Positions 15,160 to 35,569 of a DNA stretch of 64,000 nucleotides are shown piece after piece. The DNA is taken from contig OZ024750.1 of NCBI GenBank assembly GCA_964016885.1, positions 43,152,001 through 43,216,000 on the forward strand. Direction: 5' to 3'. Under the pieces are notes generated by a model that saw nothing but the letters and a program-made list of their open reading frames with translations, did no database searches and was not told the DNA's origin. The position numbers and the translations under genes were made by a program. Every line of letters begins with the position of its first letter. Position 1 is the first letter of the stretch. The stretch comes from Eledone cirrhosa (taxonomy: Eukaryota).

Positions 15160-17062
15160 ATGTTAAACGCAGCGAACGAAAATAGTGGTGGGAGGACAGC
15201 GGTAAGAGTTGTAAGCTCGCACGCTTTAGTCCTCCCTTCCTTCCCAACTAACGTCATAGAGAAGGAAGGAAAAATGAAAATAAAAACGGACGAATCTGCG
15301 GAGAAAAAATTAAATGACGAAAACATAAATCTGGACTTGGATTCCAACAACGAAAAAAAAAAAATTTGAAAAATTGCATGACAATACTAATAACACAAAC
15401 AAAGACACAACAAACAAAAAAATAACAGTTGAAAATAACATCATATCAGAAAACAAAGCAGACGACAAGATTTCATTTGCACAGAAAACAAAGAAATCTT
15501 TGACTTATATAGCGGAAAACATTTCAGATGTGGTACGAAGGATCACGGACGCAAAACAATACATAAGTGAAGGTGAGAATGGTATTTTATTGGTAAAAAT
15601 GCCTCAAGAATTCACGAAAGACATTGAAAGCCGAACGGTCAAGTTTCGGACCATCAACAACAGTACAAAAAAACCTGAACAGCCTTCTCAAGCAGATATC
15701 AAAACAGTACTCACAGAAGTACTGAATGAAACAACTTTCATAAGAAAAGACAGACTGTATGGAAGCCTAGCAATTATCATGAAGAACGAATCGGCGGCAA
15801 AAAAATGTGCTTTGTCACCGATTCGTTCGAAAAATTTCACCTTTTATCCATCTTATATGGGAAAAAAAACTCAACGCATATGGCTGGATGCAATGATGCC
15901 AGATGTGGACTACTGCTGGCTCATAGCTGGCTTCATCGATCCAGTGAATGACAACGTGATTTCCATTGGGAAAACCACAGGCAATGCGTTCAGTGGAACA
16001 GGTATAGAGCTGGTAGTACAAATGAAGCCTGAACGCATCGCCCAAAGACCCGACAGAATCCTATTAGAGGACCACGGGTATATAAACATTAGCGTGGAGG
16101 GGAGAAGGCCGTCCTGCCATATCTGTGCAGGCAGAGGGCACCTGAAAGCCGCTTGTCCCCAACTCAACAAAAAGAAAACCCTGCTACCAACACCAGCTCC
16201 ACCACCACCACCACAACAGATAAACAAACAACAAAACTCAGTCCCACCCAACCCGTCCCTCAGTAACACCACAACACCACCACAACACAAACAGTCACAA
16301 CACATTACCCCAAAACAAAATACAGGCCCACCCAACCTCTCACTCAATAAAACAACACAACCACCGCAGACACAACACACAACACAGTCTAACATAGTGA
16401 CATCCATCTCCCCCACAAAGAAAACCAACACGGAAACATTACCAGTAAACATACCTCTTCCCTCCAACACTGAAGATAACCCAACGAATTCGGAGGAAGA
16501 AACGGAGTCCTTCAGACAGATTAAAAGGAAAAAAAGAAAACATGTGCAAAACACACAAGGACAAACAACCCCCACCCAAATCGCAACACAATCTAACAAA
16601 ACAGAAAACACCCCTCCAGCAACAAACAAAACCAAACCTGCCCCTCCCCTCTTCGAAACACTCACACCATCGGAAAAAAAGACATTACACTATACTTACA
16701 TCAACAGAAACAATAATAAATTAAATGAACTCATATACAATAATCCTTCGGTACAAACCGAAGGTGTAAACTTTGTTTCGTCAGAAAACCACCCACATTT
16801 AAAACTAATAAAAATCCCAATGAACCTCTACCAAAAACTAAAAAAGGATTTTAAGGAGGACGTAGGACCACCCTCTGTCAAACCCATAAACCGCGTCCTA
16901 CTAAAAAGCTTTCCCCCTCCCCTTCCCCTCCCCAACACAACTCCAAACACCCCAACCCCACCACACACTGACGACCCCACACCACCACAAGACACCCCTT
17001 CACCCAACACCCCCGACCCCATGGAAGTCGTGCAACCCGAACCCCGGGAAGCGGAAAGGTAG
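15160..17062 (+). CDS. ORF1 gag-like protein, copy 2 (frameshift in A12 run at 15353-15364; main frame 15374-17062)
   Basis: Same CCHC knuckle; near-identical to copy 1. Confidence 0.8.
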
Positions 17063-17095
17063 GTCTCTACACTCTCCTTTGGCTCTGCCGCCCAC

Positions 17096-20000
17096 ATGGA
17101 TGTGTTAAGAGTAGGATGTTTGAATGCACGTGGCCTGGGCTCAACTTGGAAGCAAGCAAAGCTTCTAAATGACCTCAGGTCATGTAGTATAAATGTAATG
17201 GTTATCTGTGAGACTCGAATCAGCGTCATGCGGCAGCTGGCCCCCACCTTCGATGACTTTGAGGTGCATGCATCTCTCTGTCAACCTGGAGGTGGGGGTG
17301 GGGTTGTCGTGCTGCTGCAAAAACACCTGGGTCTTGCCGTACAGGTTGTGCACTCGGACCCGGAGGGTCGTTTGTTGGTGCTAGACGTTGGCAGTAGTGA
17401 AAGTGCGGCCTTGAGACTGGTCGTCGTCTACTCCCCTTTCGGAGCTGAACGGCCCGACTTCTTCCAGCGTTTGGAGACTTTTCTGGGAACGTCGCGTTCC
17501 CTGCTTCTAGCGGGGGATTGGAATGACATCCTAGATGCACGTTGGGACTATGCAGGAGCATGTCCTAATAGAGTTACTCGACCGTTTTAACGGCCGTTAA
17601 CTCGACCGTTTTAGGGGTTACTCGACCGTTTTAGGGGTTACTCGACCGTTTTAACTTGGTCGATAGATATCGACTAGATTTTCCAACTGTGCCTACCTGG
17701 ACTTGGAGAAACCACAGTGGTCAATCTAGATCGTACTTAGATAGATTCTTAGTTAGAAGTAAGGATAGGGACATATTAAGCTGTCCAGAAATGCGCACGG
17801 TTGGCTACACAGATCACAAATTAGTGACCTGCGTGGTCAATCTCGAGAAAACACATAGACAGGGTCCCGGTTACTGGAAACTTCATTTGTCTTTACCGGC
17901 AAAAGAGACTTACAGAAACCGGATTAGCAGATTAGTTAAGGAGAGGTTGACGGGTGCAATCGTCAACAACCGATGGTGGGCATCTCTCAAAAGAGAGATT
18001 AGAACAGAATCAATAAGTTATAGCAAGATGTTAGCTGCCAATAGGAATAGAAACGAGAAAGAATTAACAGGTAAATTAGAAGAGGCAATCAAGAGCGAAG
18101 ATGTGGCCAGAGTGCTGGCATCGAGGACGGCCTTGAACCAGTTTTTCGATGCAAAGCATGAAGGCTGCGTCATTCGAAGTAAAATACGTGCTCTAGGTAA
18201 TGAGGGGGCCAAAGCCGTTGGATGGGCCCGCGTGACAGAAGCTAAAAGTGGAAATCGATCCACCATCCGGTCGTTGCAAGACGAAGATGGACGAGTGATC
18301 CGGGAGCCTAAGCAGATGTGCGAGGCCTTTCAAAAGCACTTTGCCCGATTGTTCGGGGGAGGCGAGGGTCCGGGCCGGGGCGTGGATTTCGGTCCATACC
18401 TCGACGGCCTGCCGCGTCTCTCGAACAAAGAGGCAGAGTCCTGCGAGGGACCAATCTCGGCTGATGAGATCAGAGATGCGCTGAGCCAATGCAGCAGACG
18501 CAAATCTCCAGGTCTCGATGGTATACCTTACGAACTTTATTTAGCAATGCCGGTCTTCTTCTCCGAACTCCTCGAAGCGGTCTACTGCAATTGGCAGCAG
18601 AACGGGAGAATTCCTTGTTCTGTAGCCAAGGGCGTAGTCACGCTGGTGAGGAAGGACGAGAACAAGGGGGATAGTATAAATAATTTTCGGCCCATAACCC
18701 TGCTAAACACAGAGTTAAAGATTTTGGCCAAGGTGTTAGCAAAGAGGTTGGCGCTTGTCGTGGGTGGCCTGGTGGGAGATGCGCAGACATGTGCTATCCC
18801 ATCCAGGTCCATTCACGATAACCTCCACCTCATGCGATACATCATAGAGAGGGTTGGCAACAAACCCGGCTTCGGTGGGGCCCTGATCAACTTGGATCAG
18901 TCTAAGGCCTTCGATAGGGTCGACCATGGTTACCTGGATGCGGTGCTAGCGGCGGCTGGGTTCGGTCCTGTTTTCAGAGGCTGGATCACTGCCCTACATA
19001 GCAACCACATCTGTTCTAGGACCAAGGTGAACGGCTACCTTTCGAAGCCGTTCGAAATCACACGATCCATTCGACAGGGGTGCCCTCTCTCCTCCCTTCT
19101 GTACGTATTGACTCTCGAGCCTTTACTGAGGAAGTTGGAGTTGTTGCAGGGTATCCCCCTGGAACCAGGATTGAGCAAAGCGGTGTCGGCCTACGCCGAT
19201 GACGTAACAGTAATGGTATCGACCGACTCGGAGATCGAGGCGATCGGTACCTTACTGGAGGAGTACGAAAGGTTGTCAGGAGCGAAACTGAACCGGGAAA
19301 AATCCATCGGGCTGCAACTCGGAACGTGGAGAGGCAGACCGATGCCTCCTGACGGTGTCGTCGGACACTGGACGGAGGGCCCGGTAAAGTTGCTTGGGGT
19401 CTGGTTTGGACCGGACCTCCAGGTGGAAAAGAACTGGAACGAGGTTACGAACAAGGTGTTTGCACTAACCCAGAAATGGGCCAAGTGTAAGCTGTCCCTA
19501 AAAGGCCGGGCGGAGGTGGCGAACATTTACATAGCGTCCGTCACTTACTACCGCCTGACTGTCGTGCCTTGCCCTAAGGAAACACTCACCACCATGGAAC
19601 GCATGCTCTTCCAATTTCTTTGGAAGAAGCGTCCTCCTATGGTGAGAAGATCCATCTGCTGCCAACAACCTTCGAAAGGAGGGCTGGGGATGCCGTGGTT
19701 GATGATGCGTAGGCACGCATTAAGGCTACGGCACCTACAGGTATTCCTCACTGGTCAACCGGTGTGGGCTCCGTTCGTGAAACGAGCCTTTCCGAGACTC
19801 GTCTCACTCACCGAGCTACAGTCCTGGGTCAAGCAAAGTTCCGGAAAACTGGGAGACTGGCACACTGAGTGTGCTCAGGCGCTCAGGGCTCTCTGGCAAG
19901 CGGGCCGGGCCATCGGTGGAGAATCCACCTCATCATTCTATAGAGGGCTGGTGGCTAGCAGGGGCGATGACACCCTTGGAGAGTCGCTGGACATGGAAGA

Positions 20001-20279
20001 AGACGAACTGGCCAGCCTGTTCGGTAGGACTTTCGGCCCAGGACCAATGGACAACTTCCAGAAGTCACTGGCCTGGCAGTGCTACCGAGGGGCTCTACCC
20101 GTTCGAGAGAGGCTCTACAGACACGGGCGCCCGGGCAGGGATCCCTCAAAAAAGATTTGCCCTAGATGCGTGCGTCACGAAGAAACCGTAGCGCACGCAT
20201 TGGTGCAATGTCCGGGCGTGGCTGATCTGTGGGGCTACGCCGAACAACTGCTGTCGCGGGTGGCGCCGATTAAATTGAC
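17096..20279 (+). pseudogene. ORF2 (APE-RT-zinc finger), copy 2; split at 17573-17655 and truncated at the C-terminus
   Basis: ATG start, CLNARGL, GDWN, TDHK, YADD. The frame from 17656 is uninterrupted and runs into foreign sequence after ...APIKLT. Confidence 0.9.
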
Positions 20280-20503
20280 AGCACGGACACTCTATCTCAA
20301 AATTATTTTTGAAAAGCATTTAGAAATGCGCAACCGGTAAAAACTTAAAAACTTAAAACCACAACTGAATACTAACCCATACAATCACTAATACTCTTTT
20401 ATTCCTAATTAAACCATTTTTTAACTGTGAACAATTTGTCAGCATTTTCTATTCCGTTTACCAATATATAATAACTTGTGTGTTACACCTCTATTCTTTT
20501 AAC
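20280..20503 (+). mobile_element. Penelope-like pLTR/retrozyme-like fragment, family B, carrying a variant hammerhead motif
   Basis: 20340-20503 matches 24538-24733; 20282-20340 resembles 23479-23536. Ends in (TA)n. Confidence 0.7.
20306..20343 (+). ncRNA. Minimal type I hammerhead ribozyme, U3-A8 variant, with GAAA mutated to GCAA
   Basis: TTT-TTGAAAA-GCATT taga AATGC-GCAA-CCGG-TA-AAA. Confidence 0.55.
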
Positions 20504-20519
20504 TATATATATATATATA

Positions 20520-21522
<1,003 letters not shown>

Positions 21523-21909
21523 AGTTCTATCGATATATTTTTAGCCATTTCCTTGCAGGACCGTATTAAAACCAATACTTTATGTGAGGAGATGGAGAGG
21601 GACAAAACCGTGTTTAAGTTGAAGTATGGCGTTATCTACATTGAAATGTCACCCTATTATTCCTGTGATAACAAACATGTCAATGGTATTTTACAGTCAG
21701 ATCTGTTTGTCATAGAACACTAAATCTAGAAAGATGATTCCTTCATATCTATATCGTTCAACTAGATTTAGAAGAATACTCCATTCAACTTCTATGTTTG
21801 GCGGTTTTTCATGATTTCAATGGATATTTCTCGTAGGTTTTAGATATAAAAATATAAAAAGACAAATATACAAACTTTTACAAAGTCACTAGACAGACAA
21901 AAGTATATG

Positions 21910-21968
<59 letters not shown>

Positions 21969-21999
21969 TATATGTATATATATATATATGTGTGTATAA

Positions 22000-22032
22000 A
22001 GATATATATTTATATAAAGAATAATTATATAA

Positions 22033-22070
<38 letters not shown>

Positions 22071-22103
22071 TTATATAATTATTCTTTATATAAATATATA
22101 TCT
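22000..22103. repeat. Perfect AT-rich palindrome centred on (TA)n
   Basis: AGATATATATTTATATAAAGAATAATTATATAAG-(TA)n-CTTATATAATTATTCTTTATATAAATATATATCT. Confidence 0.85.
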
Positions 22104-22219
22104 GAGTTCAAATCCTGCCGAGGTTAACTTTGCCTTTCATCCTTACGGGGTCGATAAAATAAAGTACCAATAACCTACTGGGTAATTGCTGGCCTTGTGC
22201 CAAATGTAGAAACAATTAT
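22101..22219 (+). mobile_element. SINE family A, 5'-truncated
   Basis: GAGTTCAAATCC...GCCTTTCATCCTTACGGGGTCGATAAA...GGCCTTGTGCC. Confidence 0.85.
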
Positions 22220-22392
22220 TTAGTTATGTAATAAACAACATAAGATAATTAATTCATTTACCAAAGGTTTCACGTAGACAGACGAGGCTGACACAGGTAA
22301 TTATCTTATGTTGCTTATTACATAACTAAAAAGCTCTGTAGTCTGCACAGAGCACCCTCTTTTCCTTTACCTTTCCTACGGAAATACTTCAT
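22220..22392 (+). mobile_element. Asymmetric hairpin element, family E (about 32-bp arms plus tail)
   Basis: TTAGTTATGTAATAAACAACATAAGATAATTA / TAATTATCTTATGTTGCTTATTACATAACTAA, followed by an unpaired tail ending at TA-rich sequence. No hammerhead core seen. Confidence 0.5.
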
Positions 22393-22699
22393 ATAATATT
22401 ATTTATATATATATATATATAAATATAATATATATATACATACATACACACACATATATATATATGTACACATATATATATAAACAATAGCACCAACAAA
22501 ATACAACAATCAAACCAGTAAATTAAATAAACGATAAATATATATGAAAAGGTTTACAGTTTGTCTAATGTACGTAAAACCTCTCGCATCAACATCTATA
22601 TATATATGTATATGTTTTAACATTCACACGAACACATATATATACTACAGATGCCTTCACACACACAATTATATTTTCGTATATGTATGTATGTCCCTA

Positions 22700-22796
<97 letters not shown>

Positions 22797-23182
22797 AATA
22801 AAAATAAATAATCGAGAATCGAAATCTCAGCCCACGAAATCACGAAACACAATCTTCGAAATGTGTGGCAGAGGGCTCAATAGTTTGGGTAAACCAGAGC
22901 TATAACTATCGTTAAAATACCAATGCTTAAAATACCAATGCTTAAAATCATTCGCACAGCCGAAAAAACGACCAGGAAAATTCGGGTCACACAAATAATA
23001 AATTAATAAATTAATAAATTAAATGAATATATATATATATTTATTAAAATAACAGATTAAAGTTTAAGCAAACAATCGTTGCTTTCACCCTTAACGGGAT
23101 CTTCTGAAACTTTTATATATTTGATATATATATTATTCTTATCGAGCCCTCTTCGGATTTTAGTCTTCACATTTATTATTAT

Positions 23183-23257
<75 letters not shown>

Positions 23258-23334
23258 TATATATATATATATAAATATATATATAATTATATATAGATAT
23301 ATAGATATATAAATATATATATAATTATATATTA

Positions 23335-23613
23335 GAAAGTGAGGTTTTTTTTACAAAATGAAAAATAACCGAGGTCTACTACACGAGTGAAAGTATAAAG
23401 AAAAAGAGATGAAATCGAAAATACAACTGGAGTCTTATTTAAAAAAAATATATATATATATTTATTTGGTTCCTTTACCACAGACCCTCCATCTCAACTC
23501 ACCTTTTGAAAAGCAGAAGAACTGCGAAACCGGTAAAGGAACCGAATAAATATATATATTTAAAAAAAAAAAAAAATAAGACTCCAGTTGCATTTTCGAT
23601 TTTATCTCTTTTT

Positions 23614-23620
<7 letters not shown>
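23335..23620. mobile_element. Asymmetric hairpin element, family C, with hammerhead
   Basis: Arms at about 23394-23479 and 23532-23620; tail at 23335-23393; TA-rich flanks. Confidence 0.75.
23502..23539 (+). ncRNA. Minimal type I hammerhead ribozyme, U3-A8 variant
   Basis: CCTT-TTGAAAA-GCAG aagaa CTGC-GAAA-CCGG-TA-AAGG. Confidence 0.72.
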
Positions 23621-23642
<22 letters not shown>

Positions 23643-23649
<7 letters not shown>

Positions 23650-24073
23650 AGATCAAAAGATGGTTAAAGGAGTTCCATATATTTTATTATGCGCATTTCA
23701 AAAACAAACATCATCAAGCAATAATATTTGTGTTTTCATCAGATAAAACAGGAGAACATGATATGAAGGCTAAAAAAACACTTGTTGATAGTGCAGTTTT
23801 AAATCAACATATCATGATATGTTGATTTAAAACTGCACTATCAACAAGTGTTTTTTTAGCCTTCATATCATGTTCTCCTGTTTTATCTGATGAAAACACA
23901 AATATTATTGCTTGATGATGTTTGTTTTTGAAATGCGCATAATAAAATATATGGAACTCCTTTAACCATCTTTTGATCTTTTATTATGCATACTCCAGTC
24001 CCACAAACTGTAGAGTGCTTCTTATCCGATATCTGCATTGCTTTATTGCACTACAATAAAACTCACCTCCTAC
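23643..24073 (+). mobile_element. Family A hammerhead hairpin element, copy 2 (spacer-less 344-bp palindrome 23643-23986 plus tail)
   Basis: Centre ATCA|TGAT at 23814/23815; arms essentially perfect. Confidence 0.9.
23881..23947 (+). ncRNA. Minimal type I hammerhead ribozyme (mirror copy at 23682-23748 on minus strand)
   Basis: TTTTAT CTGATGA ... GAAA TGCGCA TA ATAAAA. Confidence 0.82.
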
Positions 24074-24106
<33 letters not shown>

Positions 24107-24108
<2 letters not shown>

Positions 24109-24336
24109 ATTGTAACGTCAAACCCGTTGGTTCACCAAAGTAAGCTCCCGTAGTCTCCAGTATTTGGGGGTTGTACTAAGCAGAGTGTAATGTTAATAAG
24201 TATGACGAAGTGTTAAATTTTCATTAAGTTTATTCAGGTATGACGCGCGTTTCGCGCTTGATCAACTCAAGGTTCTATTTCTCTCGATCGGGTCTGACTC
24301 TGGAATCAAAAGCTCATCAGACTCCTGTTAGCTTAA

Positions 24337-24338
<2 letters not shown>
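24107..24338 (-). mobile_element. Hammerhead-bearing short element, family F (no inverted arm)
   Basis: Unique segment between two (TA)n tracts that contains a hammerhead core on the minus strand. Confidence 0.65.
24235..24327 (-). ncRNA. Type I hammerhead ribozyme with large stem II insertion
   Basis: Minus strand: CAGGAGT-CTGATGA-GC...GC-GAAA-CGCGCG-TC-ATACCTG. Confidence 0.72.
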
Positions 24339-24419
<81 letters not shown>

Positions 24420-24423
<4 letters not shown>

Positions 24424-24729
24424 TAAACGGAATAGAAAATGCTGACAAATTGTTCACAGTTGAAAAATGGTTTAATTAGGAATAAAAGAGTATTAGTAAT
24501 TGTATGGGTTAGTATTCAGTTGTGGTTTTAAGTTTTTAAAACTTAAAAACTTAAAAACTTAAAAACTTAAAAACTTAAAAACTTAAAACCACAACTGAAT
24601 ACTAACCCATACAATTACTAATACTCTTTTATTCCTAATTAAACCATTTTTCAACTGTGAACAATTTGTCACCATTTTCTATTCCGTTTACCAATATATA
24701 ATAACTTGTGTGTTACACCTCTATTCTTT

Positions 24730-24733
<4 letters not shown>
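24420..24733 (+). mobile_element. Family B asymmetric hairpin element with (ACTTAAAA)x6 at the turnaround
   Basis: 24420-24537 is the reverse complement of about 24577-24694; tail of about 40 bp; (TA)n on both sides. Confidence 0.85.
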
Positions 24734-24811
<78 letters not shown>

Positions 24812-24866
24812 AATGTGTGTGTGTGCGTGTGCGTGTGCGTGTGAGTGTGTGTGTGTGCGTGTGTGC

Positions 24867-24897
<31 letters not shown>

Positions 24898-24968
24898 CGT
24901 GTGTGTGTGTGCACGTGTGCGCGTGCGTGCGCGCGCGCGCGCGCGTGTGTGTGTGTGTTTGTGTGTGT
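24734..24968. repeat. (TA)n/(TG)n/(CG)n microsatellite
   Basis: Direct reading. Confidence 0.9.
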
Positions 24969-26051
24969 TTGGTAACGCTCTAGTTAATTTTTGTAAATTT
25001 TTTCTCATAAGAAATTAATATAACAATTTTATATATTAAATCTTTATCAAAAGGTGCTTTATCTTGCGGAACTTTTTCTTGGAATCCCGAAGTTCCTTAA
25101 AACTGGATTAAAGTACTGTTAATCTTTTTGACACTAGACCACCCAAAACCATGCCTGGTTCTATGGTACACAACTCTTTATTTTAAAATGGTTACATTTA
25201 TCTAAAAAAATTTGTTTAGTTAAGCTCTATACACCTGATACACAACGAGGAAATTAGTTCTTTTACTAAATCTCTCCAAATTCTTGATTATTTAAAAATT
25301 ATTTGAAAATTATTGGCAGTGTTTTTCTTTAGAAATATGGCAAGGAAAGGGTGAAACTCTCAAAGGACTAAACCTGTAAACATGTTCCGATCCTTAGTTA
25401 TAACAGCTTTATTTCAATTACTTCGCTAACGTCTTCACAAGTTCTCATCATCAGAAAAATATTTTCCTTTGTTTGTGTTGTGTGAGAGATTTTTTGAAAA
25501 GTGATAATTTATAAGCTAAAAGTCAAGGAATCTAGTTAGAATATGATGAATATAACGATAGAGATGTTGTCTTCCCTTGGGAAATCATACGTTGTTTCCA
25601 AAGTATAATTCCTCAAAACATTTCTTTACGATAATGGGAGTATTATTAAAGCCAAGCAACATTATTTATGTGTTTGCGAATCTTAGTATTTATGCGCATG
25701 CGTTGATATACAAGTTGATTACTTAGAGATATGTGTGTATGTATCTATAAGCGTAATTATATAAATATGTGTTAGGTGCATTTAAACAAACAAAAATGGG
25801 CACATGTATGTTAGTGTGGAGCATGAAAATATGTATTATACTAGAAAATAGAAGTGTAGTCTAAATTTTGTATTATTTGGTATAGATTGTTGTATGTATT
25901 TCATCTTGTGATTAAAAACCACTTCCAGTATGGAGGCTATTGTAATATGGAGCAGCGTTGTTAGATATTTCTCTAAATTCTTGTTTCCCAAATTTGTTTA
26001 AATCAAAGCACACCTTAGAACAAGTAAAACTATGATGGCATACGTTGTACC

Positions 26052-26208
26052 TGGCGGCGAATTGGCAGAGATGTTAGGACGTCGGATAAAATGTTTAGTG
26101 ATCTACGTTCGAGCTCTCTGCTCTGTTTCAAATCCCGCCGAGGTCAACTTTGTTTTTCATGCTTTCGTGGTCTATACAATACAGTACCAGTCTAGTACTT
26201 GGGTCGAT
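26052..26208 (+). mobile_element. Diverged SINE related to family A
   Basis: GGCGGCGAATTGGCAGA...TTCAAATCCCGCCGAGGTCAACTTTG...AGTACCAG. Confidence 0.7.
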
Positions 26209-26459
26209 TCTTCCTCTATATCTCTTTCTCATTTCCTCTCTCTCTCACTCCGAATCTTTCTATGGAAGAAATTTTCTGTGTTCGGACCTGGAGAGGAATG
26301 GGCTCCCCAGGCTAAACGTCGTATGCCACTACGGTGCCCCAACGACTCAATCATGAGTTACGGGAACATACCATAGCACATTGTACCTAAATTAGAAACT
26401 TTATTCACAAGAGACATTTATACATGTTAACATAACATAAAGTAGAAATATAGATAATT

Positions 26460-26590
26460 AATTGTTTCTACGTTAGGCACAAGGCCAGCAATTACCCAGT
26501 GTATTACTGGTACTTTATTTTATCGACCCCGTAAGGATGAAAGGCAAAGTTAACCTCGGCGGGATTTGAACTCAGAATGGCAAGGGCCGT
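26460..26590 (-). mobile_element. SINE family A, 5'-truncated, flanked by a direct repeat of about 21 bp
   Basis: Matches 241-357; GTAGAAATATARATAATTAAT at 26442 and 26589. Confidence 0.85.
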
Positions 26591-26958
26591 AGAAATATAA
26601 ATAATTAATACTCAGTAAATAGGACAAAGTTATCAATGTGAAACACGTGCTTGGTGTGTTTTTTTGGCAATGTTTTCATTCGTAGTTTAGTTGTTTCCCA
26701 CTTTCACAGTTAGATATGAACTTTATTACGAATTTCAATTTTTATTTTTCACATTTGAAAATCTTGCTCTTTCGTGGCAGCTTGTGGGCCGAGGCGCAAA
26801 GATCAAGGACCACTGGAATAGGTATATGTGATTAGGTTTAGTATTGCATTGAGGAAATTTACTATCAACAGGGTTGTATTATTGTGATTTTTAAATCAAT
26901 TTCATTCAACATTTTAATTAGTGTATTTCTGATTCCGTCATATCATGCCCATTCATGA

Positions 26959-27130
26959 TATACACTGAGTCTGTCATCTCTGTAAAGTCACATGTTTGTA
27001 GATACACTGAGTCTGTCGTCTCTGTAAAGTCACATGTTTGTAGATACACTGAGTCTGTCGTCTCTGTAAAGTCACATGTTTGTAGATACACTGAGTTTGT
27101 CGTCTCTGTAGAGTCACAGGTTTGTAGATC
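26959..27130. repeat. 42-bp minisatellite, about 4 copies
   Basis: GATACACTGAGTCTGTCGTCTCTGTAAAGTCACATGTTTGTA. Confidence 0.9.
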
Positions 27131-27463
27131 TTGCTCTATTGTTCACTGAGTGTAGAGTGTATTATCAGACCACATCCGAAATCTCTGCATCATAGATTCC
27201 TTGAAAACTTCATTTTTAATTCTCTTCCCCCAGAAGAGATTACTTCAGAATAATAATGACATCTATGCATCCATAATATTGATATGGGTGTCGGTGATGG
27301 TGGTATACTTTTTCTTGAGGCTTTAAGGACCGCGTTTGAGATGGATGGGTTATATTCGACAATATCCAAGGTTTTCTTGAGATTTTAAGGACGGCGTTTG
27401 AGATGGATGGGTTATATTCGACAATATATAACTGAATGAATCCGCAGTTGGTTTTATTTTCAA

Positions 27464-27698
27464 ATTGGTCAACAAATTGACCGTGACAAGACTATTTTTA
27501 ATATTGGTCAACAACTGGACAGTGACAAGATTATTGTCAATATTGGTCAACAACTTCACTGTGTCAAGACTATTGTCAATATTGGTTAACAACATGACTT
27601 TGACAAGACTATTGTCTATATTGGTCAACAACTTCACTTTGACAAGACTATTGTCAATATTGGTCAACAACTTCACTGTGACATGACTATTGTCAATT
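27464..27698. repeat. 39-bp minisatellite, about 6 copies
   Basis: ATTGGTCAACAACTTCACTGTGACAAGACTATTGTCAAT; minus-strand frame reads LLTNIDNSLVTVK repeats. Confidence 0.9.
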
Positions 27699-28002
27699 GT
27701 CTTAATTTTGTACTGCAACATATTTTTACATTTACTGGGTGTTCTATGGAAAGTTTCCTTCGTCGAAAATTACATTTTATATAATAAAATATATATTATT
27801 ACCCAGAATGTAGAAGTTATATATTTTCTTTTTATATCAAATTAGAATATAATGTATATTTATTGGTGGCCTTACAGAGAAAGATCGACTATAATATTTA
27901 AAGATTATTTCATCTAGAGTCTTGCTTAAGAGCAGACGACTAATGTACAAATTGTGGACAATAAAATGTCTTACCTGGTAAAAAACAAACACACAAATGT
28001 AC

Positions 28003-28384
28003 AGAGAGAGAGAGAGAGGGGAGGGGAAGAGAGAGAATAAGAGAGAAAAAGAGAGTGAGAGAGAGGGGAGAGAGAGAAAGAGGGAGAGAGAGAGTGAGAG
28101 AGAAAGAGAGAGAGAGTAAGAGAGAGTAAGAGAGAGAAAGAGAGAGAGAGAAAGAGAGAGAAAGAAAGTGAGAGAGAAAGATAGAGAGAGAGTGAGAGAA
28201 AGATAGAGAGAGAGTGAGAGAGAGAAAGAGAGAGAGAGAGAAAGGGAGAGAGAGAGAGAGTAAGAGAGGAAGAGAGAGAGAGTAAGAGAGGAAGAGAGAG
28301 AGAGAGTAAGAGAGAGTAAGAGAGAGGAAGAGAGAGGGAGAGAGAGAGAAAGAGAGAGAGAAAGATAGAGAGAGAGTGAGAGAA

Positions 28385-28420
<36 letters not shown>

Positions 28421-28488
28421 GGAGAGAGAGAGAGAGAGAGAAAGGGAGAGAGAGGGGAAGAGAGAGAGAGAGAGAGAGTAAGAGAGAA

Positions 28489-28569
<81 letters not shown>

Positions 28570-28602
28570 TAGAGAGATAGAGAGAAAGAGAGAGAGAGAG
28601 AG

Positions 28603-28670
<68 letters not shown>
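28003..28670. repeat. GA-rich/(TA)n compound microsatellite
   Basis: Direct reading. Confidence 0.9.
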
Positions 28671-28792
28671 TATTCTTTGCACTTTGTATGTTTTTTGTAG
28701 CCTCAAGACCAATGCTTTTGGTTTAAACAACGAATTGTTCTAGAGACCACTTGGGAATGGTTTCGACTCTTGTTTGAGTAAATAGATATACA

Positions 28793-28862
28793 GGGTCGAT
28801 AAAATAAAGTACCAGTAATGCACTGGTTAATTGCTGGCCTTGTGCTTATATAAGAAACCATT
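28793..28862 (+). mobile_element. SINE family A 3' fragment
   Basis: GGGTCGATAAAATAAAGTACCAGTAATGCACTGG...GGCCTTGTGC. Confidence 0.8.
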
Positions 28863-29138
28863 ACTACGTTACTTGAGTTTTACATGTATACACACATGTA
28901 TATACGCACACATACACACATATATATATGATATATGTACCTATTATATATATATATATATATATAATAGGTACATTATATATATATATATATATAGATA
29001 TATATATAGATATATGTATAGAGTCAGGAATAGAGAGAGAGAAAGAGAGATAGATAGATAGATAGATAGAGAAATGCATATATATATATATATATCCACA
29101 TACATACACGCGCATATATATTATATATATTCATGTAT

Positions 29139-29351
29139 GAAGGCGTGTGGCTGAGTGGTTAGAGAATTGGATTCGCAATCGTAAGGTTGTGAGTTCGATT
29201 CCTGGACCAGGCAATGCGTTATGTCCTTGAGCAAGACACTTTATTTCACGTTGCTCCTTCTACCTGGAGTTGCGACCGATAGATAGTATTAGCAATTGGA
29301 AAGACCAACGGAAACACTGTTCCCTCGGTCCGATTTGACGAAAGTCGATCG
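29139..29351 (+). mobile_element. tRNA-derived SINE, family B (CORE-like body)
   Basis: A box TGGCTGAGTGG, B box GAGTTCGATTCC, then GTCCTTGAGCAAGACACTT. Second copy at 31030. Confidence 0.82.
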
Positions 29352-29431
29352 TTCCTTTTATTCATGTATATATTTATACACGTAGATATTATAAGAATAT
29401 ATTTATCTATACAATATATATAATTGACTAT

Positions 29432-29467
<36 letters not shown>

Positions 29468-29468
<1 letters not shown>

Positions 29469-29660
29469 AAAGTTATTCCGGGTTCAATCGGGGGTAACCA
29501 CAGTAAGTAAGGTACTCAATACATAGCAGAGTATAAATGTTTTAATATAGAAAAGCTTCTACAGGACCAGTTCTGTTTCATTCGTGAGAAATCATCAGGA
29601 AGCCTGATGATTTCTCACGAATGAAACAGTTCTAGTCCTGTAGAAGCTTTTCTATATTAA
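29468..29660 (-). mobile_element. Family D asymmetric hairpin element (palindrome 29542-29660 plus tail) with hammerhead cores
   Basis: Both arms read CCTGATGA-TTTCTCACGAAT-GAAA-CAGWWCTRG-TC-CTGT; 3-nt spacer AAG; (TA)n flanks. Confidence 0.78.
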
Positions 29661-29685
29661 TATATATATATATATATATATTTTA

Positions 29686-29781
<96 letters not shown>

Positions 29782-30164
29782 CACACACACACACACACAC
29801 ACACATACACACACACACACACACACATGCACACGCACACATATATATATGTACAAACAGCCTGACATATATTTATCAGCACTGCAGTATTAAGTATTGA
29901 GTCGTTTCGCTCCTATTTTCTTTATACATTGTTTGTTAGTTAATATTTAGTGTTCAGTGTTTTCATTATTTGTAATGGAGAATTGTCGCTGTCTTCCATG
30001 GCAGTGTTTTTATCGCAATCTCAACAAAACCTAGCCGCCATCATGTCTATGAAGCCCACCTGGAATTTTACGATTTTTTTCACACAGGTACCACAGATAT
30101 TGTCTTTATTTGTTCAGCAAACAATATATTTACCTGAGCCTTCAAACGTTTTTGGCTCTTTCTT

Positions 30165-30607
30165 GCCTTCATTCTTTCTTTCTCTCTTTCTTTCTTATTT
30201 TCTTTCATTCTTACGTTCTTTCTTTCTTTCTTTCTTTCTTACTCTCTTTCTTTCTTTCTTTCTTCCTTTCTTTCTTTCGTTCTTTCTTTCCCTCTTTCTT
30301 TCTTTCTCTCTCCTTTTTTTGTTTGTTTGTTTGTTTGTTTCTTTTTTCATTCATTCATTAATTATTTTCTTTCTTTCTTTCATTCATTCATTCATTTCAT
30401 TCTTTCTTTCTCTCTTTCTGTTTTTCTCTCATCACTTCTTTTTTCTTTCTTTCTTTCTTTTTTCTTTGCTTAGTTTTCCTTTTTTATTCCATCTTCCTTC
30501 TTTTCCCTATCTGTCCTTCTATATTCTCTCTTTCTTTTCCCTTCGTATATTCCATCACTCCTTCATATTTTCATTTCTTTCTTTCTTTCTTTCTTTCTTT
30601 CTTTTTT

Positions 30608-30650
<43 letters not shown>
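30165..30650. repeat. Degenerate (TTTC)n/(TTCA)n microsatellite
   Basis: Direct reading. Confidence 0.9.
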
Positions 30651-31029
30651 GTCATCACTTCTCTCTTTCTATGTCGACCTCTCAGTAACAGTATATTGAC
30701 GTAAGATGTCCCATATACTACCACACTGATTCTCCTTCAATGTTACCTTTATGTCACTTGCTTCTACGGAATACTCAACCACTTATTCTATATTTCAAAA
30801 TGGAGGCAGTTCAGCTGATCGAAACCGATGGAGAATAATTTAGTTTCTTTCTTATATCGATTCATTGATAGAATCCTTAGTTTTTTCTCTTCTTTTTCTT
30901 TCTTTTCCGTTTTCCTTCTTTTTTATTCTTTATTTGTTTCTTTGTTCTCTTCTTTATTTGAAAAGTTACCGACAATTAGTTGTCATACTCAGGGGAGGTA
31001 ATAAAGGGTATATATACAGTAGAGAAGGT

Positions 31030-31242
31030 GAAGGCACGTGGCTGAGTGGTTAGAGAATTGGATTCGCAATCGTGAGGTTGTGAGTTCCATTCCTGGACCA
31101 GGCGATGCGTTATATCCTTGAACAAGACACTTTATTTCACGTTGCTCCTTCTACCTGGAGTTGCGAGTGATAGAGAGTATTAGCAATTGGAAAGACGAAT
31201 GGAAACATTGCTTCCTTGGTCCAATCTGACGAAAGTCGATCG
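31030..31242 (+). mobile_element. tRNA-derived SINE, family B, copy 2
   Basis: Colinear with 29139-29351. Confidence 0.82.
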
Positions 31243-31304
31243 ACTGTCGACAGTATAGAATATATAAACATGTTTAACGAAGGATATGTCAACATTCAAC
31301 TCCT

Positions 31305-31336
<32 letters not shown>

Positions 31337-31534
31337 AAACAACAACGAATAAATAAAACTAAGCTTTCTTCTTCACCTTGAACATCTTAAGTGAAACTGA
31401 TAACATTTTACAATGAAGTTGTAAACAGTCTCTTTTCTTTTTACGATAACAATTTTATTTTGAATGCCTTTTCTTATCGTGTTGTTAATACAATGTTAGC
31501 TATATGGAATTACAGAACTGTTTGTGTTATATAT

Positions 31535-32647
31535 CCAGGCTGGGTCATAAGTTTGGAAGCAAATAAAGATGCTTTTAATAACAAAACTACCCACTTTATT
31601 GACCAGCAACATATATGTAATTATACATAAATATGTTTAGAATATAATGTATAAAGGTTATTTAAAATGACCCCCTTATGCAGCAATAACAGACTCTAAC
31701 CTCCGTCAAACATCTTTCACCAAAACACACAACATTTCTTGGGGAATTTATTTCCAAGTGCTCGGTAAAGATGTTTTTAAATCATCGACTGTATTAGGGA
31801 CTTTTTAAAAGGTTTTTTCTTTAAGGATATACCAGACTGAATAGGTTCAAATCAGGTGAACAAGGAGGACACATTTCTTTTGACTAGAACCTCGGAAGAA
31901 GGTCTCTTCATCAAGCTTGTGTGACATTTGCTGTATGGGAAGTGACTCCACACTGTTGGAAGATCCACAGATAATCATTTTCAAAAGATTAGTTGTAGAA
32001 GCAAGTATAGGCTCCAGAATACCCTTTATGTAAGATTGGGAGCTGATTTTTGTCCTTTCTTCTACACAAATTAGAGGAGACTTCCAAGATGATAAAACAG
32101 CTCCCCAGACCATAACAGAAGCTAGTTTCATTGTATGGAATGAAGATGTTTGGCCAACACTGATTGCTGAGGCTTTCTTTCCAATTACTCGATCATTTCT
32201 TAGGTCGTGTGTCTGCTCAACTGTGAAAATCTTTTCATCTAACCAGACAATTTCCCCCGCCATGCCACCTTTCATTTCTCTAAGTAAATTCTTGCTTCTC
32301 TCTAGCCTTTTTTGTTTTGTCTTTTCAGAAAGGGTTTATCATTTCTGAAGAGTAAAGGAAGACATTCCTAAGTCAACATTGAATATCCTTCTCATTGTCC
32401 TAGGGCTTACTCGAGCCTCTTTGCTATTTTTCTCATGGATCTGTTCGTATTTCTTCTTATCCTTTCTCAAACAGCTTTAATGATAGTAGGAGCCCATTAA
32501 GTTCGTGGTCTTCCAATTCTGTGACCATCCAACAAATCTCCTTGCTCTTTATAACACTTCACCGCTTTCCAAACGGTAGATCTTGCAACCGAAAGTAACT
32601 TTACAATATCCGAATGTGACCTCCCTGTACGATGAAGTTTGAGTAAA
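31535..32647 (-). mobile_element. Decayed Tc1/mariner DNA transposon (maT/DD37D-like transposase pseudogene)
   Basis: Minus strand gives HTH 'SHSDIVKLLSVARSTVWKAVK...GRPRT', 'WLDEKIFTVE', 'VMVWGAV', 'WIFQQCG..SHTA' and 'PPCSPDLN' across frameshifts. Candidate TIR CCAGGCTGGGTCATAAGTT near 31535; the other end is lost at a SINE. Confidence 0.82.
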
Positions 32648-32737
32648 GATGAAAAGCAAAGCTAACCTCGGTAGGATTTGAACTCAGAACTATAAGCCAC
32701 GGAGCATGTTGTTCGATGTTCTACCGATACTGCCAAT

Positions 32738-32738
<1 letters not shown>
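32648..32738 (-). mobile_element. SINE family A 5' fragment
   Basis: GATTTGAACTCAG...CTACCGATACTGCCAATC. Confidence 0.75.
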
Positions 32739-32772
<34 letters not shown>

Positions 32773-32785
32773 GCTACTGCTGCTG

Positions 32786-32835
<50 letters not shown>

Positions 32836-32926
32836 GCTACTGCTGCTGCTACTACTACTACTACTACTGCTGCTACTACTACAACTACTACTACTACTAC
32901 TGCTACTACTACTACTTCTCCTGCTG

Positions 32927-32994
<68 letters not shown>

Positions 32995-33005
32995 GCTGCT
33001 GCTGT

Positions 33006-33056
<51 letters not shown>
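32739..33056. repeat. (TAC)n/(TGC) trinucleotide microsatellite
   Basis: Direct reading. Confidence 0.95.
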
Positions 33057-33060
<4 letters not shown>

Positions 33061-33213
33061 GCCTATCTATATATATCTATCTATATATCTATATAAATAA
33101 ATAGAGAGAGAGAGAGATGTATACTGTGAGAGTGGGAGAGATAGACAGAGAGAGAGAGAGGGAGAGAGAGGGGGGGAGAGGGAGAAAAAAGAAAGAGAGA
33201 CAGAGAGATAGAA

Positions 33214-33250
<37 letters not shown>

Positions 33251-33289
33251 AATGAAATAGATATCGAAAGACAAATAGATCGTGAAGGA

Positions 33290-33606
33290 GACACACACAC
33301 ACCCATACATACACACACACATACACATACATACACACACACCCATACATACACATACACACACATACACACACACACATAAACACTCACACACACACAC
33401 ATACACACACACATACACACACTCACACACATACACACATGCACACACACACACACACACACATACACATACACATGCACACACATACACATACACACAC
33501 TCACACACATACATACACATGCACACACATACACACACACACACACATACACACCTACACACACATACACATACACACATACACACACACACATACACAC
33601 ACACAT
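33290..33606. repeat. Degenerate (CA)n/(CATACA)n
   Basis: Direct reading. Confidence 0.9.
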
Positions 33607-33652
33607 GTATATATAAATATATAGAGAGAGAGGAAGTAAAGATTATAAGAAA

Positions 33653-34178
33653 ATAATTGTTTCTACTTTTGGCACAAGGCCAACAATTAACAAGTGCATT
33701 ACTGGTACTTTATTTTAGCGACCCCGTAAGGATGAAAGGCCAAGTAAACCTCGACGGGATTTGAACTCAGACCGTAAAGGGACATAACTATGCTGGAAAG
33801 CATGGCGTCCGACCCTCTACCGATACTGACAATCCATAAGAAAATAATTGTTTCTACGTTTGGCACAAGGCCAGCAAATAACCCAGTGCATTACTGGTAC
33901 TTTATTTTATCGACCCCGTAAGGATGAAAGGCAAAGTTAACCTCGGCGGGATTTGAACTCGGAATGGCAAGGGCCGTAGAAATATAAATAATTAATTGTT
34001 TCTACTTTAGGCACAAGGCCAGCAATTACCCAGTGCAGTACTGGTACTTTATTTTATCGACCCCGTAAGGATGAAAGGCAAAGTTAACCTCGGCGGGATT
34101 TGAACTCAGAATGGCAAGGGCCGTAACTCTATGCGTCAAAGCATGGCGTCCGACCCTCTACCGATACTGCCAATCCAC
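33653..34178 (-). mobile_element. Three tandem SINE family A copies (about 33653-33837, 33843-33977 and 33993-34178)
   Basis: Each contains GGCACAAGGCC...GGTACTTTATTTTA...GGATTTGAACTC; the middle copy lacks the A-box head. Confidence 0.88.
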
Positions 34179-34327
34179 CAAAATAATGTGAAATGTTTCT
34201 ACAATTCTCAGACTTTACCATAATTGAATTGATAACAGATTTTAAATGAAGATTTCATTGGTTTAATTTGAAATATTTCATATTGGGTGGAATATTGTTA
34301 CCATGAACAGACTGTTACTTCTCCCCC

Positions 34328-34785
34328 TGGTGGGGTGTGTGGTGGGGTGGTGGTGAAGGTAGTGGTTGTGTGTGGTGGTGTGGTGGTGAAGGTAGTGGTT
34401 GTGTGTGGTGGTGTGGTGGGGTGGTGGGGTGGTGGTGAAGGTAGTGGTTGTGTGTGGTGGTGTGGTGGGGTGGTGGGGTGGTGGTGAAGGTAGTGGTTGT
34501 GTGTGGTGGTGTGGTGGGGTGTGTGGTGGGGTGGTGGGGTGGTGGGGTGGTGGTGAAGGTAGTGGTTGTGTGTGGTGGTGTGATGGTGGTGGAGACGGTA
34601 TTGTGGTGGGGATGGTGGCGGTTGTGTGAGGCGGTGGTGGTGATGGTGATTTTGTGGTGGCGGGAGTGTGGTGGTGGTGGGGATGGTAGTGGTGGAGGTG
34701 GTGGCTGTTGTGTGTGGGGGTTCTGTGTGTGTGGTGTGGGTGTGTGGTGGTAGATGTGGTGGTGGTGTCGTGGTGGTGGTGGTGC
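34328..34785. repeat. GT-rich minisatellite (GGTGGTGAAGGTAGTGGTTGTGTGTGGT core)
   Basis: Core repeated about 5 times, decaying into (GGT)n. Confidence 0.85.
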
Positions 34786-34899
34786 TATTGAATAAGTATA
34801 TTGGAGTAGGGTGGAAACACGGAGGATAGAAAGATACATATATGTATGTATGTATGTATGATATGTATATATGTATATATGTCTGAATATATATATGTA

Positions 34900-34957
<58 letters not shown>

Positions 34958-34964
<7 letters not shown>

Positions 34965-35362
34965 AGATCAAAAGATGGTTAAAGGAGTTCCATGTATCTT
35001 ATTATGCGCATTTCAAAAACAAACATCATCATGCAATAATATTTGTGTTTTCATCAGATAAAACAGGAGAACATGATATGAAGGCTAAAAAACACTTGTG
35101 GATAGTGCAGTTTTAAATCAACATATCCTGCACTATCCACAAGTGTTTTTTAGCCTTCATATCATGTTCTCCTGTTTTATCTGATGAAAACACAAATATT
35201 ATTGCATGATGATGTTTGTTTTTGAAATGCGCATAATAAAATACATGGAACTCCTTTAACCATCTTTTGATCTTATATTATGTATACTCCAGTCCTACAA
35301 ACGGTAGAGTGCTTCTTATCCGATATCTGCATTGCTTTATTGTACTACAATAAAACTCACCT

Positions 35363-35365
<3 letters not shown>
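34958..35365 (+). mobile_element. Family A hammerhead hairpin element, copy 3 (arms within 34958-35280 plus tail)
   Basis: Same boundaries as copies 1 and 2; centre TTTTAAATCAACATATC. Confidence 0.9.
35175..35241 (+). ncRNA. Minimal type I hammerhead ribozyme
   Basis: TTTTAT CTGATGA ... GAAA TGCGCA TA ATAAAA. Confidence 0.82.
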
Positions 35366-35448
<83 letters not shown>

Positions 35449-35569
35449 TATATATAAATATATATAAATATATATATATACAGACATATTTCCACGTATA
35501 AAAACACAAACAAACGCCCACAAAATAACAAAAAAATCGTCAACATTATCATCTACCCCCCCACACGCA

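What the first reader, a model, noticed from the sequence alone, without database searches (positions are those of the whole stretch)
34958..35280. Copy-private mutations are mirrored in both arms of each hairpin
Seen: copy 3 differs from copies 1 and 2 at CATGTAT/ATACATG, CATGCAAT/ATTGCATG and TGTGGATAG/CTATCCACA, each change present in both arms. Copy 2 has A7/T7 where the others have A6/T6. A few unmirrored changes also exist. Inference: each palindrome is built de novo from a single template molecule at insertion, or its arms are homogenised by intrastrand conversion. The three different centres favour de novo formation.
Basis: partly seen in the sequence, partly recalled or inferred. Interest (0 to 1): 0.75.

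Follow-up and report, generated by a model that had tools for sequence, protein, structure and literature searches.

The report
Penelope retroelement back-to-back end copies
This hairpin is one of thousands of back-to-back end copies left by a known kind of jumping gene (a Penelope-like retroelement); its two halves match because both were likely copied from one RNA during insertion, and the matching changes are family variants found at many other places, not private to this copy.

Summary
The mirrored differences exist, but they are not copy-private. Copy 3's alleles occur in 4,262 arms genome-wide and copy 2's A7 in 1,559. Centres recur: one class makes up 19 of the first 50 listed, and copy 2's centre is shared. 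The hairpins are head-to-head 3' ends (pLTRs, with a hammerhead motif) of an abundant Penelope-like retrotransposon with Hydra-clade motifs (~800-aa RT + GIY-YIG ORF, ~3.56-kb unit), inserted in (TA)n, with an 87-bp tail on one side. This layout is published, and the scan met it before in other genomes. The data add mechanism. 139 of 144 two-armed insertions carry exactly one tail. Arms agree at subfamily sites (3% discordance, 24% when shuffled). Both arms either stop at one fixed site or both run into the 3'UTR (1 mixed of 25, 12.5 expected). Short hairpins are no more homogeneous than arms kilobases apart. This fits two priming events on one RNA at insertion and does not support arm conversion. 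About 7 of 99 loci look chimeric. No RNA or biochemical test was possible.

The parts
34958..35126 (-). Left arm of copy 3: element 3' end (pLTR) without tail, running inward to the fixed stop site ...ATCAACATAT
   Evidence: homologous to the element end downstream of the ORF and 3'UTR in L092, L101, L017
35127..35127 (.). One extra C at the junction, present in neither arm's template at that position
   Evidence: W3 row: insert C, no microhomology
35128..35280 (+). Right arm of copy 3: sense pLTR lacking its first 16 nt
35173..35243 (+). Type I hammerhead motif (CTGATGA core at 35181, long stem II, GAAA, palindromic stem III ATGCGCAT, predicted cut after 35235); mirror copy on the minus strand of the left arm
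   Evidence: motif search, positions; fold forms stems I and II but z = -0.98; no hammerhead hit in Rfam
35281..35366 (+). 87-bp tail; in full units the same sequence continues into the leader before the ORF
   Evidence: L092, L098, L106
34834..34957 (.). Left (TA)n target flank
35367..35480 (.). Right (TA)n target flank
20520..20954 (.). Copy 1: palindrome 20520-20868 plus tail; centre holds repeated AACATATC units
23643..24072 (.). Copy 2: palindrome 23643-23986 plus tail; both arms reach the stop site, centre ATAT-CATG-ATAT

Best explanation
The palindrome is an insertion of a Penelope-like retrotransposon with Hydra-clade motifs, made of two copies of the element's 3' end joined head to head in a (TA)n tract, and its arms match because both were likely reverse-transcribed from the same pLTR of one RNA at insertion. 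Shown: family identity, abundance, one-sided tail, matched haplotypes, fixed inner stop site, recurrent centres. Inferred: the RT-endonuclease (probably a dimer) nicks both target strands; one 3' end primes at the tail start site and the other about 90 nt further along the same RNA; both cDNAs run to the RNA's 5' end (likely the transcription start in the pLTR) or, from a 3' pLTR, into the UTR and ORF; the two cDNA ends are then joined, often by their self-complementary ATAT ends. Mirrored variants are inherited from the source element; unmirrored ones arose after insertion.
For: [quoted passage not shown] L092 shows inverted copy + pLTR-tail-ORF-UTR-pLTR-tail. Abundance: 17,088 exact matches of a 31-mer, 0 in the reversed control. 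One tail in 139 of 144 two-armed insertions, 95 of 99 with at least 90 bp overlap, 42 of 46 in the set followed up without selection. (TA)n beside 270 of 288 termini. Discordance at 27 subfamily sites 73/2415 (3.0%) against 24% (minimum 20%) in 2,000 shuffles. In the unselected set, among 25 loci with both arms past position 160: 12 both stop, 12 both continue, 1 mixed, 12.5 mixed expected, P = 8e-7; two of these rows were misread by the script, and the counts are 11, 14, 0. A two-mutation haplotype found in only 3 arms genome-wide lies in both arms of L101, 4.2 kb apart. The tail-less arm reaches further inward in 82 of 139 loci (25 the reverse, 32 equal; rough estimates), so there neither arm contains the other. 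Literature: the anole element PAc cuts and extends both target strands, starts RT at two sites that bound the tail, and is a predicted dimer (PMC11167929).
Against: No RNA data: no RNA run was listed and the laid runs were contigs, so the transcription start and cap are untested. Haplotype agreement alone would also follow if one subfamily was active at a time. Some loci have arms of different haplotypes: L103 (two tails), L236 (compound centre), L233, L197, L208, L234, and L211, whose tail arm lacks the rare L101 allele carried by its other arm; so two RNAs or later ectopic conversion occur in a minority. Informative sites are about twice as discordant as other sites (3.0% against 1.3%). The reach asymmetry is inflated because very short tail-less arms escape detection. 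About 18 places followed up showed no inverted partner within 6.5 kb (counted by eye). Most of the 144 loci were selected by pattern, and most are from one chromosome.
Confidence: 0.7

Rival explanations
1. Two separate RNA molecules from the same source element or subfamily template the two arms; the single tail comes from an order of priming or from endonuclease trimming.
For: About 7 of 99-100 loci have arms of different haplotypes. Subfamilies active at different times would give matched haplotypes anyway. Craig et al. ascribe the tail to EN-mediated resolution (PMC8557442).
Against: A full-length RNA has a 5' and a 3' pLTR, so independent molecules should give mixed pairs (one arm stopping at the site, one entering the UTR): 1 of 25 seen, 12.5 expected. 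The rare L101 haplotype is in both arms.
Confidence: 0.15
2. Self-priming fold-back: one strand (an antisense RNA, as proposed for Adineta Penelope elements, or the first cDNA) primes on itself and is copied into a hairpin that is then trimmed and integrated.
For: Perfect-palindrome centres are the commonest class (19 of 50). It explains mirrored rare alleles (7 mirrored against 68 unmirrored singletons) and matched stopping. Proposed in PMC3846280 (Discussion passage).
Against: In 82 of 139 loci the tail is on the arm that reaches less far, so neither arm contains the other; fold-back of a target-primed cDNA cannot give this. An extra C and repeats of the last 8 nt on the cDNA strand at the stop site suggest an RT reaching the end of a sense template. 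An extrachromosomal hairpin with later trimming is not excluded by geometry.
Confidence: 0.1
3. Arms are homogenised after insertion by intrastrand conversion in the hairpin or cruciform.
For: A small share of rare alleles is mirrored: 2 of 15 at one site, 7 of 75 singletons.
Against: No excess in short hairpins (5 of 58 singletons mirrored, against 2 of 17 in long elements). Arm divergence in short hairpins is not lower than in long elements (0.73% vs 0.65%; 1.95% vs 1.15%) and is about 3% in the oldest subfamily. 13 of 15 loci keep the rare allele in one arm.
Confidence: 0.04
4. The palindromes are MITE or foldback DNA transposons copied as whole units.
For: Many share length and centre.
Against: Arms vary from under 30 bp to over 3 kb and continue into an RT ORF. 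The tail is one-sided. The same centre occurs in different subfamilies, and no unmirrored variant is shared by loci with the same listed centre.
Confidence: 0.01

Closest known systems
Hydra clade of C-terminal EN+ Penelope-like elements, e.g. Hydra-1_Obim and Penelope-13_HM (PMC8557442; passages, section 11 and parts of the supplement seen)
   Same: Single RT + C-terminal GIY-YIG ORF, DKT, CxCX5C linker, CxxC and CxH, no CCHH, hammerhead near the 3' end, (TA)n targets. Penelope-13_HM carries a 5'-truncated inverted copy. The ORF resembles Hydra-1_Obim along its length (by eye).
   Different: Unit about 3.56 kb (Hydra generally under 3 kb), long 3'UTR, RWT/RWI for RWK, a different hammerhead sequence from Hydra-1_Obim, an 87-bp tail, and at least 17,000 arm ends.
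Inverted 5'-truncated pLTR insertions with optional tail in EN+ Penelope-like elements (PMC8557442 Fig. 2 legend; PMC3846280 and PMC2377424 passages; opposite-strand hammerhead pairs 100-700 bp apart in PMC4209133 passages)
   Same: Same layout: head-to-head copies, tail at one end, partial tandems, palindromic junctions.
   Different: Tail is 87 bp rather than 30-40 bp. The passages I read describe the layout without counts of tail number, arm haplotypes or stop sites.
PAc (Poseidon, Anolis) in vitro mechanism (PMC11167929; parts 1-3 of 4 read, i.e. the main text and methods)
   Same: Two RT start sites bounding the tail just past the pLTR, AT-rich targets, both strands cut and extended, predicted dimer.
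   Different: Different clade. That study did not test whether both strands use one RNA or how the two cDNAs are joined.

Membership tests
EN+ Penelope-like element | Single ORF with RT and C-terminal GIY-YIG endonuclease | tested here: met
   ORFs of 809 and 821 aa in L091, L101 with RT motifs and LIY...YFG; Pfam GIY-YIG E = 0.0025, below its cut-off, on the L009 fragment; no Pfam hit on the two full ORFs
EN+ Penelope-like element | Partial tandems forming pLTRs, inverted 5'-truncated copy, one-sided tail | tested here: met
   L092, L098, L106, L206; one tail in 139 of 144
EN+ Penelope-like element | Hammerhead motif in the pLTR | tested here: met
   Core and stems by motif; the only recurrent variant inside the CTGANGA core is at the free N position; no Rfam hammerhead hit; cleavage not tested
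Hydra clade | DKT for DKG; CxCX5C linker; CxxC and CxH; CCHH absent | tested here: met
   DKT at 144, CNCRIKNKC at 680, CNLC at 780, CLH at 808 of the L101 frame; one Cys in the GIY-YIG core
Hydra clade | RWK motif | tested here: inconclusive
   RLRWT / RLRWI at the matching place
Hydra clade | Insertion into (TA)n | tested here: met
   270 of 288 termini
Hydra clade | Placement in the Hydra RT clade by phylogeny | not tested
   Only compared by eye with the published alignment
Neptune clade | CX2-5CxxC linker and CCHH motif | tested here: not met
   Linker is CxCX5C and CCHH is absent (definitions); my first label 'Neptune' was dropped
MITE / foldback DNA transposon | Fixed-length terminal inverted repeats, symmetric ends, no RT | tested here: not met
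   Arm lengths vary over 100-fold, one-sided tail, RT ORF

The most novel reading that the evidence does not exclude
This family is a record of about ten thousand Penelope integration events that decides an open question: both arms are made by twin target-primed reverse transcription from one pLTR of one sense RNA, with a leading (tail-less) and a trailing (tail) RT whose cDNA ends are joined at ATAT. At the RNA's 5' end this telomerase-related RT sometimes realigns and adds further 8-nt AACATATC repeats, as in copy 1.
Probability: 0.5. Interest if true: 0.6.

Novelty: new member of a known kind. Interest (0 to 1): 0.36.

Why it matters
The hairpin is ordinary for a Penelope-like element and should not be annotated as a MITE or as a case of palindrome conversion. 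How these elements make their inverted repeats is still open in the papers read here (self-priming on an antisense RNA was proposed; two-strand extension was shown in vitro). The counts give testable rules: one tail, one haplotype, both arms stop or both continue. Since arms appear to start identical and then drift, arm divergence could date insertions as LTR pairs do.

Tried and rejected
(1) A-to-I editing hot spot at copy 3's unmirrored site. It looked recurrent, but that search skips common words and so returned carriers of the rare allele; genome-wide the allele is in 33 of 17,088 arms, and sense-strand A>G (16) does not exceed T>C (17) among unmirrored changes. (2) Neptune label: dropped after reading the clade definitions. 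(3) Hammerhead cut as the inner stop site: no arm ends at the predicted position 43; the stop site is at 167. (4) Rfam: only generic hairpin (miRNA) models below their cut-offs. (5) Expression: no RNA holder listed; contigs of four coded runs cannot show starts. (6) Protein atlas gave no result. (7) The L1/Tx1-like ORF in the window is unrelated to the family's ORF (best E = 0.059). (8) A nearest-neighbour count was computed asymmetrically and is not used. (9) The extra C as a cap signature: C follows the stop site in 46 of the first 100 rows (by eye; G excluded by the pattern), but microhomology, the genomic base before the site and realignment explain part of these, so it stays a suggestion. 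(10) Look-up of earlier findings by sequence was empty. Literature searches showed no paper, among those listed or read, that tests one-RNA origin of the arms; older subscription papers on Penelope structure were not searchable, and only one paper's supplement was opened (PMC8557442, part 2 of 59 and two searches). Rows dropped: 7 of 151 arm pairs (duplicate, nested or compound loci); locus L105 was lost in de-duplication; site 39 was left out because those loci were selected on it; indels and arm ends were masked.

Full report
Observation. The window holds three related palindromes at 20520-20868, 23643-23986 and 34958-35280, each in a (TA)n tract and each followed on the right by the same 87-bp sequence.

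The variants are not private. The window lies in a 3.0-Gb genome; an octopus is my guess from recall and comes from no call. A 31-mer of the arm matches exactly 17,088 times. A 69-mer with copy 3's alleles matches 4,262 times, and copy 2's A7 tract 1,559 times. In a tree of arms from sampled loci, arms group by subfamily; several loci share identical arms, with copy 3 in one group and copies 1 and 2 in another. Centres recur: 1,459 loci have both arms reaching the same inner site, and four centre types make up 34 of the first 50 listed. Each common centre occurs in several subfamilies, so centres are re-made at each insertion rather than inherited.

What the element is. [quoted passage not shown] L092 shows the whole arrangement: an inverted partial copy, then pLTR, tail, leader, ORF, UTR, pLTR, tail, with a period of about 3.56 kb. 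The sense pLTR holds a type I hammerhead motif with a palindromic stem III (not found by Rfam; cleavage untested). The protein has DKT, CxCX5C, CxxC and CxH and lacks CCHH, the marks given for the Hydra clade in PMC8557442 (section 11), and it resembles Hydra-1_Obim by eye without being that family. No phylogeny was run. Inverted 5'-truncated copies with a one-sided tail and (TA)n targets are described for these elements (PMC8557442 passages; PMC3846280; PMC2377424; PMC4209133).

How the arms come to match. I followed up the 100 listed matches and added loci, giving 144 two-armed insertions after dropping 7 of 151 pairs. (a) Exactly one arm has the tail in 139 of 144; in the set taken without selection, in 42 of 46. 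(b) At 27 subfamily sites the arms of a locus differ in 73 of 2,415 comparisons, against 24% when arms are shuffled between loci. (c) Arms stop at one fixed site, 167 nt from the end, or continue into the UTR. In the unselected set the script found 12 loci with both stopping, 12 with both continuing and 1 mixed, where 12.5 mixed were expected; reading one search corrects this to 11, 14 and 0. (d) A haplotype with two rare changes exists in three arms in the genome, two of them the arms of L101, 4.2 kb apart. (e) The tail-less arm reaches further inward in 82 of 139 loci, so one arm is often not contained in the other; detection favours this class, but among arms ending between positions 16 and 159 there are still 38 tail arms to 17 tail-less.

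Inferred mechanism. The anole element PAc cuts and extends both strands of AT-rich DNA, starts reverse transcription at two sites that bound the tail, and is a predicted dimer (PMC11167929). Applied here, the two target ends prime at two sites about 90 nt apart on one pLTR of one RNA. From a 5' pLTR both cDNAs end at the RNA's 5' end, giving the short hairpins in this window; from a 3' pLTR both run into the UTR and ORF. The cDNA ends are joined by their self-complementary ATAT ends, by other microhomologies or with short inserts. Copy 3 has a full tail-less arm, one extra C, and a tail arm 16 nt short. Copy 1 has repeats of the last 8 nt at its centre; three or more such units occur at 4 loci genome-wide, which fits realignment of the RT at the template end. 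That the stop site is a capped transcription start is inference; Penelope of D. virilis is transcribed from within its pLTR (PMC2377424 passages), but no RNA data were available here.

Against this reading. About 7 of 99-100 loci have arms of different haplotypes (L103, L236, L233, L197, L208, L234, L211), so two templates or later ectopic conversion occur. Succession of subfamilies explains (b) on its own. An extrachromosomal hairpin made by self-priming and then trimmed, akin to the proposal in PMC3846280, is not excluded by geometry. About 18 followed-up places had no inverted partner within 6.5 kb.

Conversion. It is not the main cause. Short hairpins are no more homogeneous than long elements of the same subfamily, the oldest short hairpins differ by about 3%, mirrored singletons are 5 of 58 in short and 2 of 17 in long elements, and a rare allele is mirrored in 2 of 15 loci.

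Earlier findings of the scan report the same kind of structure in other genomes; I saw them only at the end and did not check their DNA.

Verdict. A new, very abundant member of a known kind.

Noticed in passing
window 9438-14691 and 15329-20340 (+): Two tandem units (about 5.9 kb period) of an L1/Tx1-like non-LTR element by the look of its ORFs (zinc-knuckle ORF1, endonuclease and RT ORF2; label from recall); the second unit ends about 180 bp before copy 1.
   Followed up: partly
window 35573-64000: A 36-38-bp satellite of at least 28 kb (776 units, 90% matches) with extreme C over G skew, running off the window end.
   Followed up: no
window 20679-20716; L207, L208, L210: Tandem 8-nt AACATATC units at palindrome centres, 4 loci genome-wide with three or more; looks like reiterative copying of the template end by a telomerase-related RT.
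   Followed up: partly
window 33650-34170: Three imperfect copies of a 147-bp dispersed repeat (SINE-like by recall), also seen beside other loci.
   Followed up: no
window 31847-32335 (-): Fragment resembling a Tc1/mariner transposase (162 aa frame; label from recall).
   Followed up: no
L001:505-1224, L030:2678-3077, L023, L020: Remnants of a second Penelope-like family, with a CxxC-type linker and GIY-YIG (Pfam E = 0.0004), next to copies of this family in (TA)n.
   Followed up: no
L004:981-1385, L019:879-1250: One arm jumps from ORF sequence to the end of the UTR, skipping sequence that the other arm contains; template jump or later deletion.
   Followed up: no
window 20520-35366: All three copies have the tail on the right; flanks and centres differ, so they are independent insertions (1 in 4 by chance).
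   Followed up: yes
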